A DNA stretch of 64,000 bases, taken from positions 1,187-65,186 of the forward strand of contig CAMORT010000005.1 of assembly GCA_946624065.1 (NCBI GenBank). The letters are read 5' to 3'. How positions within the stretch are numbered: the first letter of the stretch is position 1; each line of letters begins with the position of its first letter. Below the pieces are notes generated by a model that worked only from the letters and a program-made list of their open reading frames with translations, searched no databases and was not told where the DNA came from. Positions 23,156 to 26,100 of this stretch are shown here, piece after piece. The translations under genes and the position numbers were made by a program. The DNA is from an uncultured Bacteroidales bacterium. Lineage in GTDB: Bacteria; Bacteroidota; Bacteroidia; Bacteroidales; WCHB1-69.

Positions 23156-26100
23156 ATGAAAAAAATTCTCCTATACTTTATTATATTCTGTGCTGTTCTC
23201 TCCCTCTCCGCCCAGACCTTCACCGAGTGGCAGGATCCCAAAGTGTTCGAGGTGAATAAACTGTACCCGCGGGCCAACATTCCGCAAAACAACGAATATG
23301 CTGTCCAAAACCATTCTTTTGAGAACCTTGATGGCCAGTGGAAGTTCTTTTATGTGCCCAACGCCGACGAGCGGCCCACCGACTTTTTCAAAACCGACTA
23401 CGACGACAGCGGTTGGGGCACCATTCCTGTGCCGGGAAACTGGGAACTCAACGGCTATGGTGTGCCCGTCTATGTGAACACCACTAACGATTTCGACAAC
23501 AGTCAGTTGCCACGAGTGCCCGTAAAAGGCAATGCCGTGGGCAGCTACCGCAAGTGGGTGAATATAGACAAAAAATGGAAAGACAAGCAAGTGATTATCA
23601 ATGTTGGGAGTGCGAAGTCCTGCTTCTACCTCTGGGTGAACGGAGAGTTTGTGGGCTATAGCGAGGATGCCAAGACCAATTCCGAGTTCGACATCACCCC
23701 CTTCGTGCGTTTCGGGGAGCGCAATCTCATCGCCCTGCAGGTCTTCAAGTGGAGTGATGGCTCCTATTTCGAGTGCCAGGATTTCTGGCGGCTGAGTGGC
23801 ATCGAGCGCGGCATTACCCTCTACGCCCAACCCAGAACACGCATTTACGATTACAAAGTGGTGGCAGACCTGGATTCTACCTATAAACATGGGATTTTGG
23901 ATATAGAGATGACTATCGAAAATCTGGATTCCTGTCCGAAAGACCAAAGGCTCTATATTTCAGTCAATTTTCCAAAAAGAGACTTTAAGACAGAAGAGGT
24001 GATTTTTCATAATTATGCCGACACGATTCATAAGAATACAGTGGGAAAACACTATGTTCGCTTGAAAGCCGAGTTGCCCGAAGTCACGCCTTGGACGGCT
24101 GAACATCCCCATTTGGAAAAGATGCTCATTTTTCTTTCCGACAGCAATAAAAAGCATATTGACAATGCCTGTGTGTATATCGGATTCCGCAATGTGAAAG
24201 TTGAAGACGGTCTTTTGAAAGTGAACGGCGTGCCTATTACCATCCGTGGGGTGAACCGCCATGAGCATGATCCCGAGACGGGCCATGTGGCCGACAAACG
24301 CATAGAGGAGGACATCCTGCTGATGAAAGCCAACAACATCAACACGATTCGTACCAGCCACTATCCCAACTCGCCGGAATTTTACAATTTGTGTGACAAA
24401 TACGGTTTGTATGTCATTGACGAGGCCAATGCGGAGTCGCACGCGCAGGGTTATGGAGAGAAGTCGCTGGCGAAACGCACTGACTTTAAGCGTGCTACGG
24501 TAGCGCGCACGCGCAACATGTACGAGCGTGACAAGAACCACCCGTGCGTCATTACTTGGTCGTTGGGCAACGAGTCGGGCAACGGCGTGTGCTACGAGGC
24601 GGCCTACGACTGGCTGAAAGACCAGGACAGCACGCGCCCCGTGCAGTACGAGCGCGCCCTCTACGACCGCAACACCGACATCGTGGCCATCATGTATCCC
24701 TCGGCGGACTACCTTTCCAAGTATGCACAGAAAAAGCAGGAGCGGCCGTTCATCATGTGCGAGTACGCGCACGCGATGGGCAACAGCTGCGGAGGCCTCC
24801 AGAACTACTGGGACACCATCTACAAATACCCGCAGTTGCAGGGCGGCTGTATTTGGGATTGGGTGGATCAGGGTCTGCTGACGAAAGATGCGCAGGGCCG
24901 GGAGTTCTACGCTTACGGCGGCGACTTCGGGGAGAATATGCCCTCCGACGGCAACTTCTGCATCAACGGTCTGGTAGGTCCCGATCGCAAGCCGCACCCG
25001 CAGTTGGCCGAAGTGCGGAAGGTCTATCAGCCAGTCACCATTGAGGCGGTGGATTTGGACTCATTGAGGTTCCGTATCATCAACCGCTTCGATTTTACCA
25101 ATTTACTGGATTTCAATATTTTCTATACGCTTCAGCCCGATGTGGCGCATGAAACACCCAAACATCCGAATGATTTTCTCTCCATCCCCAATCGTCCCAT
25201 TATCGGATTTTTAAATCAGTCTCTTGCACCCCACGACACGGCCTATTTCACTTTGCCAGAATCTTTTATCAAACAATGGATTCCTGACACTGTGCTGCCT
25301 GGGCGGGATGTGATGCTGGATTTCTATGTGGTTAACACAAAGGGCACAAAGGACACAAAGGGTGCAAAGGACACGAAGGGAGCAAGGGGTGGATGGGGCA
25401 CAAGAGGTGAAGAGGGTATAAAGGAAATAGGAAATGTAATCGCTTACGAACAGTTCAAGTTGCCGGTGCCGACGCGAAAAATCGAAGATTTTGAATTGGA
25501 CACCACCTTTGCGGAGGTGGATTCATTTTCGATCATCAAATTCAAGGATATTAAAATTATTTTTGATGAAGCGAATGCTCGCATCTCATCCATCGAAAAA
25601 GGAGGTAAAGTCATTGTGAGTCAGGGTCCAGAGTTGTGTTTTTGGCGTCCTCCGACGGATAACGATTATGTTGATGCCCATGGAGCGGAATTGTGGAGGA
25701 GAATAGGATTTGACTCTCTTGTGAGAAAGACAAGTTATTATTCATTTGGCACAAAACCGTGGCAAGGCGGCGTGATAGTTGTCATTCAATCCGAAATGAT
25801 GAATTGTAATGACGAGATTGTTATGGATGTTATTCAATTGTATCAGATTCGGACTTCAGGAGATATTGTGCTTCAAAACACGATTATTCCTCATAAATGG
25901 GTGGAAATCATACCTAAAGTGGGTGTGCAAATGAAGGTTTCCGACGAGTTAGTGACCACAGAATGGGTGGGTTATGCGCAGGAAACCTACAAAGACCGGC
26001 AGTCGTGCGGTTTTATGGGTCATTACGAGGCACCAACAGACAATCTTTTCCATCACTATATGCGTCCGCAGGCGGCAGGCAATCGGATGAACACTCGCTA

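What the first reader, a model, noticed from the sequence alone, without database searches (positions are those of the whole stretch)
25334..25432. The nonamer array is inserted in-frame in a surface loop of the GH2 beta-galactosidase
Eleven 9-nt units (99 nt) sit inside the LacZ-like CDS and translate as [33 protein letters not shown]. The flanking sequence (DVMLDFYVV | array | [12 protein letters not shown]) looks like two adjacent beta-strands of the LacZ domain-4 sandwich, so the array appears to expand a loop.

At the nucleotide level this segment belongs to the same word family as the intergenic arrays at 19954, 33817 and 55832. A period of 9 preserves the reading frame, and this frame is stop-free. 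That suggests an intergenic-type repeat invaded, or was generated inside, an enzyme gene without killing it. The result is a natural in-frame 'repeat exonisation' in a bacterium.
Basis: partly seen in the sequence, partly recalled or inferred. Interest (0 to 1): 0.72.

Follow-up and report, generated by a model that had tools for sequence, protein, structure and literature searches.

The report
Variable 9-base repeat inside beta-galactosidase loop
A short 9-base tandem repeat, of the same family as repeats between genes in this uncultured rumen Bacteroidales genome, sits in frame in a floppy hairpin loop of an intact LacZ-type beta-galactosidase and gains or loses whole units between strains; it is a real but fairly ordinary coding minisatellite, not a one-off invasion.

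Summary
Window 25334-25432 is a degenerate 9-nt tandem array, about 9 clear units of the 11 claimed. It lies in frame in an intact five-domain GH2 beta-galactosidase (23156-26950). A confident AlphaFold model places it between two adjacent domain-4 strands, and it is the only disordered segment. It shares a GGT-RMA core, and some exact units, with the intergenic arrays at 19949, 33812 and 55832 (the last has period 7).

This is not a private insertion into a conserved loop. Distant GH2s have a conserved ~12-aa hairpin here. In this rumen Bacteroidales clade that hairpin has become the most variable spot of the gene, with at least 12 unrelated fillers of 9-35 aa. The repeat filler occurs in 17 of 121 close orthologs (64-97% identity). 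It has 6-11 units, and five alleles occur within the window's own 90%-identity cluster. Intergenic arrays change by single 9-nt units in the same way.

Best reading: a coding minisatellite in a structurally permissive loop that changes by whole units, so the frame is kept. The imperfect Gly-X-Y peptide is probably a passive read-out of the DNA. This is a new member of a known kind. The dispersed array family itself seems undescribed, and what keeps its core constant is unexplained.

The parts
23156..26950 (+). LacZ-type GH2 beta-galactosidase gene, 1264 aa. It has a signal peptide ([20 protein letters not shown]), five core domains and a ~200-aa C-terminal extra domain.
   Evidence: Pfam hits. 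PDB sequence hits 3DEC/3BGA at E about 1e-220. AF2 model pLDDT 89.4, with TM 0.86-0.92 to 3DEC/3BGA and to E. coli LacZ. The catalytic motifs WSLGNE and CEYAHAMGN are present. 120 homologs cover the full length.
25334..25432 (+). In-frame nonamer array (aa 727-759), nominally 11 units. It is read as imperfect Gly-X-Y triplets and predicted to be disordered.
   Evidence: for the periodicity; the only segment with pLDDT <50 is model residues 714-737; 81% purine; codons AAG 6/6, ACA 4/5, GCA 2/2, AGR 2/2 and ATA 2/2, each against an 18-41% background.
25334..25378 (+). Block A: AACACAAAG GGCACAAAG GACACAAAG GGTGCAAAG GACACGAAG, i.e. (RRC-ACA-AAG)-type units. They appear to have expanded from the native N-T-K codons.
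   Evidence: Alignment of arrays from 8 orthologs. Block A has 1-5 units. L086 and L010 have only the seed AACACAAAG.
25379..25423 (+). Block B: GGAGCAAGG GGTGGATGG GGCACAAGA GGTGAAGAG GGTATAAAG. These units are of the intergenic GGT-RMA-RRR type.
   Evidence: In orthologs the units GGTGAATGG, GGTTCAAGA, GGTGAAAGG and GGTACAAGA are identical to intergenic units.
25424..25432 (+). Degenerate terminal unit GAAATAGGA (E-I-G).
25310..25333 (+). Codons of the upstream beta-strand VMLDFYVV (aa 719-726). They are conserved across the clade.
   Evidence: AF2 strand at model residues 700-708. Alignment. Nucleotide conservation.
25433..25462 (+). Codons of the downstream beta-strand [10 protein letters not shown] (aa 760-769). 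AYEQFKLP is conserved even in distant GH2s.
   Evidence: AF2 strand at model residues 741-750. Alignments.
19949..20038 (-). Intergenic nonamer array of 10 units (GGTGAATGG ... GGTGAAAGA on the - strand). Its C-rich strand ends 3 nt before the trmO ATG at 20042.
   Evidence: An array sits at the same place with different unit numbers in L083 (15 units) and L084-L086 (6-7 each).
33812..33874 (-). Intergenic nonamer array of 7 units. Its G-rich strand starts 5 nt after the stop codon of the ABC-transporter gene (33879-35663, -).
   Evidence: It differs from the 97%-identical strain L081 by exactly one 9-nt unit.
55832..55936 (+). Intergenic heptamer array of 15 units (GGTGAAA / GGTGCAC / GGTACAC) with the same GGTRMA core. 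It starts on the stop codon of ddl.
   Evidence: Heptamer and nonamer versions occupy one orthologous spacer in L083/L084 versus L085/L086.

Best explanation
The segment is a coding minisatellite (an in-frame variable-number tandem repeat). It occupies the turn of a beta-hairpin in domain 4 of a working LacZ-type GH2 beta-galactosidase.

In this clade of uncultured rumen/gut Bacteroidales the canonical, conserved ~12-aa turn (..KTKxxxGLIPAGHE..) has been lost. What connects the two strands is now free in length and sequence. In a minority of alleles, including this one, the connection is filled by 9-nt units of the genome's own dispersed GGT-RMA-NNN array family.

The only consistently open frame on the purine-rich strand is the GGT frame. 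The array is therefore read as imperfect Gly-X-Y triplets rich in Lys, Arg, Thr and Glu.

The array changes by gain and loss of whole 9-nt units. The likely mechanisms are slipped-strand mispairing or unequal recombination, plus exchange between alleles through the conserved flanking strands. The frame is therefore never broken. Units carrying an in-frame TGA, which are common in intergenic arrays, are removed by selection.

The peptide is a disordered protrusion with no catalytic role; its sequence is mostly a passive read-out of the DNA repeat.

Shown: the anatomy, the reading frame, the loop position, family membership, unit polymorphism and purifying selection on the rest of the gene. Inferred: the slippage mechanism, the neutrality of the peptide, and expression.
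For: Real periodic array in frame.

Loop position:
- The AF2 model has pLDDT 89.4 and pTM 0.91.
- The only segment below 50 lies inside the array, between strands at model residues 700-708 and 741-750.
- The fold matches LacZ, 3DEC and 3BGA.

Canonical short hairpin in 60 distant GH2s from many phyla.

Loop variability: the highest column entropy of the gene is at aa 751-760, with at least 12 unrelated fillers of 9-35 aa.

Polymorphism of the array:
- The array is present in 17 of 121 sequences.
- It has 6-11 units across the sampled alleles; all differences are multiples of 3 nt and mostly of 9.
- There are five alleles of 7-11 units inside the window's own cluster at >=90% identity.
- The window differs from L081 (97% aa identity) by one unit and 6 substitutions in 90 nt. 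The flanks are 99-100% identical.

Same behaviour in intergenic arrays: a one-unit difference at 33812 between the window and L081, and 6-15 units upstream of trmO.

Same family.

DNA-driven rather than protein-driven composition: 81% purine and atypical codons.

Selection for an open frame: 0 of 42 GH2 units carry TGA at positions 7-9, against 6 of 50 intergenic units.

Gene under purifying selection in array-bearing lineages: blocks with 88-91% nt but 97-100% aa identity between the window and L001.
Against: - The units are only about 75% alike, so recent pure slippage does not explain the whole array.
- The array region is far more conserved (85-93% nt) than its neighbours (43-55%) between genes that are 64% identical overall. 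This points to allele exchange, or to some constraint at the DNA level, rather than independent growth in place.
- Why arrays at unrelated loci keep the same GGTRMA core with period 7 or 9 is unexplained. A binding factor or a dedicated generating mechanism is not excluded.
- There is no expression, activity or proteomic evidence.
- Exposure of the loop in the oligomer was not modelled.
Confidence: 0.75

Rival explanations
1. A recent, one-off invasion: an intergenic repeat element moved into a conserved loop of the enzyme gene and happened to be in frame.
For: The block-B units are of the intergenic type, and some units in orthologs are identical to intergenic ones. The closest relatives P0002 and P0003 (86-88% identity) lack the array and have an 11-aa loop. 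Codon usage is foreign to the gene.
Against: - The array is shared, at the same position, by orthologs of 64-97% identity, with homologous unit order.
- The loop is hypervariable in all relatives, not conserved.
- There are no inverted repeats, target duplications or stable structure.
- Block A derives from the native N-T-K codons.
- In 80 metagenomic loci carrying such arrays, none sat convincingly inside a gene, so the family shows no tendency to insert into genes.
Confidence: 0.1
2. A selected, functional appendage: a variable, charged, Gly-rich surface tentacle. It could be an epitope that diversifies under pressure from phage, protozoa or host antibody, or a collagen-like or adhesive element, and the variation in unit number would itself be adaptive (a contingency locus).
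For: - Allele diversity is extreme inside one 90% cluster.
- The gene has about 9 hypervariable blocks between nearly invariant catalytic parts. Loop types are distributed mosaically over backbones.
- The protein is exported, as shown by its signal peptide.
- The reading is Gly-X-Y.
Against: - Translating the intergenic arrays in the same frame gives the same kind of peptide (GEWGEMGKRGAIGAGGERGAEGRRGTRGER). The composition therefore needs no protein-level selection.
- There are only 7-9 triplets, interrupted by D, N or E at Gly positions, and Pfam finds no Collagen hit.
- There is no lipoprotein or T9SS signal that would place the enzyme on the cell surface.
- The segment is predicted to be disordered.
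Confidence: 0.12
3. Coincidence: an ordinary low-complexity K/G/T loop whose codons only happen to resemble the intergenic arrays.
For: Any GGT-started Gly-X-Y run matches half of the GGTRMA core. The window's own array has no unit identical to an intergenic unit.
Against: - Unit sharing is enriched about 250-fold (exact) and about 23-fold (within one mismatch) over Gly-started in-frame 9-mers of other genes.
- The window holds 4 such arrays against 0.2 expected.
- Codon choice is strongly atypical.
- The GH2 array and the intergenic arrays show the same single-unit indel behaviour.
Confidence: 0.03

Closest known systems
In-frame coding tandem repeats (coding VNTRs, long simple-sequence repeats with a period that is a multiple of three). 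Examples from my own knowledge: the Gly-X-Y region of Bacillus anthracis BclA, and the staphylococcal Sdr and spa repeats. General rule: Mrazek et al. 2007, as summarised in PMC4679880.
   Same: Head-to-tail units whose length is a multiple of 3. Whole-unit gain and loss between strains without a frameshift. Location in a structurally tolerant part of the protein. Atypical codon usage.
   Different: The host here is a conserved catabolic enzyme rather than a surface adhesin or coat protein. The units are short (9 nt) and degenerate. The same unit family forms many intergenic arrays in the same genome.
Rickettsia palindromic elements (RPEs) and other MITEs inserted in frame in protein-coding genes (PMC10969869).
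   Same: A dispersed, mostly intergenic repeat family ends up translated inside housekeeping or metabolic enzymes, at positions compatible with the fold.
   Different: RPEs are ~150-bp palindromic mobile elements inserted as single copies. This is a tandem array of 9-nt units with no palindrome and no sign of transposition. It varies by unit number.
Dispersed intergenic heptamer arrays: TAACTGA repeats of Beggiatoaceae, cyanobacteria and a few Bacteroidetes (PMC4679880), and GGGAATC / GGGGAYT repeats of Xanthomonas and Nostoc (PMC4692102).
   Same: This comparison concerns the family as a whole. It is an abundant set of short tandem arrays with variable copy number. Placement is preferential: 11 of 37 arrays abut a start codon on the C-rich strand, so the G-rich strand is antisense just upstream of the ORF. 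Others have the G-rich strand on the sense strand right after a stop codon. PMC4692102 reports the same placement rule.
   Different: The unit sequence differs (GGTRMA core), and period 7 and period 9 coexist. No G-quadruplex is predicted for the window's arrays. The published heptamer families are under-represented in, or excluded from, coding regions, whereas this family has a translated member.
Bacterial collagen-like (Gly-X-Y)n proteins such as Scl1/Scl2 and BclA (my own knowledge).
   Same: Gly at every third residue, encoded with a 9-nt period, with charged X and Y residues.
   Different: Only 7-9 triplets, interrupted at Gly positions. No Pfam Collagen hit and no trimerisation module. 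The segment is embedded as a hairpin loop in a globular domain. It is not a member.

Membership tests
LacZ-type five-domain GH2 beta-galactosidase | Domain set: GH2 sugar-binding domain, Ig-like domain, TIM barrel, domain 4 and the Bgal small-chain domain | tested here: met
   Pfam PF02837, PF00703, PF02836 and PF02929. PF16353 (domain 4) is hit only in alleles with short loops.
LacZ-type five-domain GH2 beta-galactosidase | Catalytic acid/base and nucleophile motifs (WSLGNE; CEYAHAMGN) | tested here: met
   Both are present in the translation and invariant in alignments A1-A3.
LacZ-type five-domain GH2 beta-galactosidase | Overall fold | tested here: met
   AF2 pLDDT 89.4. Foldseek TM 0.86-0.92 to 3DEC, 3BGA and E. 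coli LacZ.
LacZ-type five-domain GH2 beta-galactosidase | Beta-galactosidase activity | not testable with these tools
   Needs an enzyme assay.
Coding VNTR / in-frame long simple-sequence repeat | Tandem head-to-tail units beyond chance | tested here: met
   TRF. Lag-9 identity 0.53, reached by 0 of 2000 codon shuffles.
Coding VNTR / in-frame long simple-sequence repeat | Unit length a multiple of three and the ORF preserved | tested here: met
   9-nt units. The ORF is intact at 1264 aa, as are all array-bearing orthologs.
Coding VNTR / in-frame long simple-sequence repeat | Copy-number polymorphism among close strains | tested here: met
   Five alleles of 7-11 units within the window's own >=90% cluster, and 7-10 units in the P0006 cluster. 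The window and L081 differ by one unit.
Coding VNTR / in-frame long simple-sequence repeat | Change by replication slippage or unequal recombination | not testable with these tools
   Inferred from the whole-unit indels. It needs mutation-accumulation or read-level data.
Bacterial collagen-like triple-helix domain | Long uninterrupted (Gly-X-Y)n recognised by the Collagen profile | tested here: not met
   No PF01391 hit at E<=1e-3. D, N or E occupy 4 of 11 Gly positions. AF2 predicts disorder.
MITE/RPE-type in-frame mobile insertion | Terminal inverted repeats or a palindromic structure, and target-site duplication | tested here: not met
   Fold z-score -1.77, with 9 of 200 shuffles as good. 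No flanking duplication is visible in the ortholog alignment.
MITE/RPE-type in-frame mobile insertion | Near-identical dispersed copies of one element | tested here: not met
   Arrays at different loci share unit types but not unit order or length.
G-quadruplex-forming G-rich repeat arrays (Xanthomonas/Nostoc type) | Four or more G-tracts able to form a G4 | tested here: not met
   ViennaRNA with G-quadruplexes enabled predicts none for the GH2 array or the three window arrays. It predicts one only for the 15-unit L083 array, and that is no better than shuffles.
G-quadruplex-forming G-rich repeat arrays (Xanthomonas/Nostoc type) | Placement: G-rich strand antisense just upstream of an ORF, or sense just after a stop codon | tested here: met
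   All three intergenic arrays of the window follow this rule. In the metagenomic loci, 11 of 37 arrays abut a start codon on the C-rich strand, against 2 of 37 on the G-rich strand.
Diversity-generating retroelement target (variable region) | Fixed-length variable region with adenine-specific substitutions against a nearby template repeat | tested here: not met
   Alleles differ in length by whole units, and the fillers are unrelated in sequence. The window was not searched for a reverse transcriptase.

The most novel reading that the evidence does not exclude
The GGT-RMA arrays (period 7 or 9) may be products or targets of a dedicated, sequence-specific process in this uncultured rumen Bacteroidales clade. 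That process could be a binding factor or a repeat-generating activity. It would keep the 6-nt core constant at hundreds of loci and place arrays next to start and stop codons. The GH2 domain-4 loop would then be a site where such an array has been domesticated as a protein-level contingency locus, rapidly diversifying an exposed epitope of an exported glycosidase. This would fit with the gene's other hypervariable, mosaic blocks.
Probability: 0.1. Interest if true: 0.7.

Novelty: new member of a known kind. Interest (0 to 1): 0.4.

Why it matters
This is a clean natural example of how much length and sequence a beta-hairpin turn of a LacZ-type enzyme can absorb: 9 to 35 residues, including a disordered Gly-X-Y repeat. 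That is useful for choosing permissive insertion sites in GH2 enzymes.

It also shows that a dispersed bacterial tandem-repeat family can be translated when its period is a multiple of three and one frame is open. The peptide sequence is then dictated by the DNA repeat rather than by protein function.

The more open question is the array family itself. It seems undescribed, is common in gut and rumen metagenomes, sits next to start and stop codons, and breaks assemblies. Gene callers sometimes swallow it into ORFs, which matters for MAG annotation.

Tried and rejected
- The first AF2 run, with 72 close homologs, gave pLDDT 58.8 and was not used for conclusions. A second run with 120 added distant homologs fixed this.
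- RNA secondary structure of the array is not significant (z = -1.77). Rfam has no family here; the only hit in the window is a tRNA.
- G-quadruplexes are not predicted for the window's arrays and are no better than shuffles.
- A collagen-like domain is ruled out: no Pfam hit, and the triplets are interrupted.
- A DGR target is rejected because the alleles differ in length.
- I tested whether the other loop fillers are decayed nonamer arrays. Only weak lag-9 signals appear in three types: NTDFTDNTD (P=0.048), DFKDNKDIK (0.047) and KHTNLAKHTGNY (0.027). None would survive multiple testing, and the other fillers show nothing.
- I looked for other translated arrays. In 80 metagenomic loci found with GGTGAATGGGGTRMANRRGGTRMA, the apparent in-gene cases were 3-unit coincidences in unrelated proteins. 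These include CxGEWGEWGEC thrombospondin-type repeats and an HpcH-type aldolase. Others were doubtful open frames on the C-rich strand.
- An NJ tree on the conserved columns is star-like and probably blurred by recombination. It shows the array type in at least 5 places but cannot date the array.
- The contig look-up for P0002 found nothing.
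Full report
**What is at the coordinates.**
Window 25334-25432 reads AACACAAAG GGCACAAAG GACACAAAG GGTGCAAAG GACACGAAG GGAGCAAGG GGTGGATGG GGCACAAGA GGTGAAGAG GGTATAAAG GAAATAGGA. TRF reports period 9 and period 18 arrays at 25335-25391. Identity at lag 9 is 0.53, against 0.24-0.30 at lags 3, 6, 12 and 15. 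None of 2000 codon shuffles reaches that value. About nine units are recognisable and the last one is degenerate.

The segment lies in frame in ORF 23156-26950 (+). The ATG at 23156 opens [20 protein letters not shown], a signal peptide, and homologs start at the same point. Pfam finds the GH2 sugar-binding, Ig-like, TIM-barrel and small-chain domains. The closest solved structures are the Bacteroides thetaiotaomicron beta-galactosidases 3DEC and 3BGA. The catalytic motifs WSLGNE and CEYAHAMGN are intact.

**Where it sits in the protein.**
A first AlphaFold run on close homologs only was poor, with pLDDT 58.8. I added 120 distant homologs. The model of residues 20-1075 then reached pLDDT 89.4 and pTM 0.91. 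It superposes on 3DEC, 3BGA and E. coli LacZ with TM 0.86-0.92.

The only stretch with pLDDT below 50 is model residues 714-737, which are protein residues 733-756, inside the array. The array is bracketed by two strands: model 700-708 (VMLDFYVVN) and model 741-750 ([10 protein letters not shown]). Exposure in the oligomer was not modelled.

**What relatives have at this place.**
Sixty distant GH2s (35-42% identity, many phyla) have a conserved hairpin of about 12 residues here..[31 protein letters not shown].

The 120 closest homologs are all from uncultured Bacteroidales of rumen and gut, with sources such as goat, yak, red deer, horse and 'RUG' MAGs. They share 64-97% identity and have lost that turn. 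The stretch between DVMLDFYLV and [12 protein letters not shown] is the most variable point of the gene, with entropy 3.1 bits at residues 751-760. It carries at least a dozen unrelated fillers of 9-35 residues, for example:
- KSDRPRSTQGE
- GPKTYSRPQWQKDLMKEKQDSTFWYH
- EKKFPADFAEYAERNTSNQANHH
- IDKNFMDGAATNHIHYHFDKAADESNPNH
- GSNTDFTDNTDLLSK

The repeat filler is present in 17 of the 121 sequences. These lie on backbones only 64-66% identical to the window's gene, as well as on close ones. So the array is not a private insertion into a conserved loop. It is one of many alternative occupants of a loop that became unconstrained in this clade.

**It behaves as a minisatellite.**
I aligned the DNA of the array from eight orthologs. 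It has three parts:
- Block A, (RRC-ACA-AAG)n, with 1-5 units. It looks expanded from the native N-T-K codons, because L086 and L010 have only the seed AACACAAAG.
- Block B, (GGT-GMA-RRR)n, with 3-5 units.
- A degenerate end.

All length differences are multiples of 3 nt and mostly of 9. Inside the window's own cluster at >=90% identity there are five alleles of 7-11 units. In the P0006 cluster there are alleles of 7-10 units plus one non-repeat allele.

Against the 97%-identical gene of L081, the window differs in the array by one unit and six substitutions in 90 nt. The flanks are 99-100% identical. One contig (L010) ends inside the array.

**It belongs to a dispersed array family.**
Arrays with a GGTRMA core at period 7 or 9 occur four times in the 64-kb window, against 0.2 expected. 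The sites are the GH2 array, 19949-20038 (-), 33812-33874 (-), and 55832-55936 (+).

Of 25 distinct units from GH2 arrays of six orthologs, 5 are identical to one of 28 intergenic units and 13 are within one mismatch. Gly-started in-frame 9-mers of other genes give 1/1276 and 29/1276.

The intergenic arrays are positionally conserved and variable in number:
- The recA-trmO spacer carries an array ending a few bases before the trmO ATG. It has 10 units in the window, 15 in L083, and 6-7 in each of L084, L085 and L086.
- The array at 33812 differs from its L081 counterpart by exactly one 9-nt unit.
- One orthologous spacer holds nonamers in L083/L084 and heptamers in L085/L086.

It returned arrays of up to 30 units. 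Eleven of 37 arrays with usable flanks abut a start codon on their C-rich strand. Only two do so on the G-rich strand. None was convincingly inside a gene. The GH2 array is therefore an unusual, translated member of a mostly intergenic family.

**Why the peptide looks the way it does.**
The array is 81% purine. It uses AAG 6/6, ACA 4/5, GCA 2/2, AGR 2/2 and ATA 2/2, codons that make up only 18-41% of their families in the window's long ORFs. Translating an intergenic array in the GGT frame gives the same kind of peptide, GEWGEMGKRGAIGAGGERGAEGRRGTRGER. The Gly-X-Y, Lys/Arg/Glu-rich sequence is therefore what this DNA encodes in its one reliably open sense frame. It need not be selected as protein.

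Selection is visible in two places. Units with TGA at positions 7-9 are 6 of 50 in intergenic arrays and 0 of 42 in GH2 arrays. The rest of the gene is under strong purifying selection in array-bearing lineages, with blocks of 88-91% nt but 97-100% aa identity between the window and L001.

**Mechanism.**
Most likely (0.75), this is a coding VNTR in a permissive hairpin turn. It changes by whole units through slipped-strand mispairing or unequal recombination. Alleles are probably also exchanged through the conserved flanking strands. The peptide is disordered and tolerated.

Several points need more than simple slippage. The units are only about 75% alike. The array region is 85-93% nt identical between the window and L001, while its neighbours are 43-55%. 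The constant 6-nt core across loci is unexplained.

Rivals, with confidence:
- A recent one-off invasion (0.10). Against it are the wide sharing, the hypervariable context and the absence of mobile-element features.
- A selected variable surface appendage (0.12). It is not excluded. The gene has about nine hypervariable blocks between nearly invariant catalytic parts, and loop types are scattered over backbones.
- Coincidence (0.03). Against it is the unit-sharing test.

**Comparison with what is known.**
In-frame repeats with a period that is a multiple of three are a recognised class of bacterial long simple-sequence repeats (Mrazek 2007, as summarised in PMC4679880). Translated members of intergenic repeat families are known from the Rickettsia palindromic elements (PMC10969869). 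Dispersed heptamer arrays placed next to start or stop codons are known from Beggiatoaceae and cyanobacteria (PMC4679880) and from Xanthomonas and Nostoc (PMC4692102). The window's three intergenic arrays follow the placement rule given in PMC4692102. No G-quadruplex is predicted for them.

The segment is not a collagen domain, not a MITE and not a DGR target; the membership table gives the tests. I found no description of a GGTRMA array family in my four literature searches, but those searches were limited.

**Verdict.**
The segment is a new member of a known kind, of moderate interest. The enclosing array family and the mosaic hypervariability of this GH2 are the parts most worth further work.

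Noticed in passing
window 23156-26950 (aa 41-60, 251-340, 671-710, 721-760, 771-820, 851-920, 1051-1130, 1151-1160): Among its 120 closest homologs the GH2 gene is a mosaic. Catalytic parts are nearly invariant (entropy ~0.1 bit). They alternate with about nine hypervariable blocks that fall to 13-30% aa identity between genes whose other blocks are 90-100% identical. This suggests diversifying selection or allele recombination.
   Followed up: partly
window 19949-20038; L082 6235-6984: The C-rich strand of the array fills the whole leader of trmO up to 3 nt before the ATG. It follows a promoter-like TTTTTTCGCATTTTTGCA. In L082 the gene caller extended TrmO by 25 aa (249 aa against 224) through the array, which is an annotation artefact caused by these arrays.
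   Followed up: partly
L082 16001-16051 versus L083 16054-16176, L084 16086-16192, L085 16094-16173, L086 16097-16190: Between the same pair of convergent genes, L082 has a classic hairpin-plus-T-run terminator (AAAAGAGGCGGAATGTTCCGCCTCTTTTTT). The other four loci have GGTRMA arrays plus CTAAACT heptamer arrays and no such hairpin. The arrays may substitute for terminators.
   Followed up: no
window 45453-45548, 59292-59342, 5381-5426, 6600-6652: There are further intergenic heptamer arrays with other units: TTAGCCA x6.6, ATAGTTC x8, AGTTAAT x5.6, and GTTTCAA followed by ATTCCCC. The last pair occurs twice, 1.2 kb apart. None is spanned by a long open frame. The genome is generally rich in period-7 repeats.
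   Followed up: no
window 63503-63534: A second in-frame nonamer repeat, AAGGAACAA x3.6 (KEQ KEQ KEQ), lies inside a + strand open frame with 252 aa upstream and 155 aa downstream. Its unit differs from the GGTRMA family.
   Followed up: no
window 27482-27606: Period-18 and period-27 GC-rich repeats lie inside the - strand gene 27472-28080. That gene is ribosomal protein S16 by synteny with L081, so they are probably a repetitive C-terminal tail.
   Followed up: no
L010 4055-4097: The contig of a 72%-identical ortholog ends inside the GH2 array. Many metagenomic contigs from the pattern scan also end in or next to arrays. These arrays seem to break short-read assemblies.
   Followed up: no
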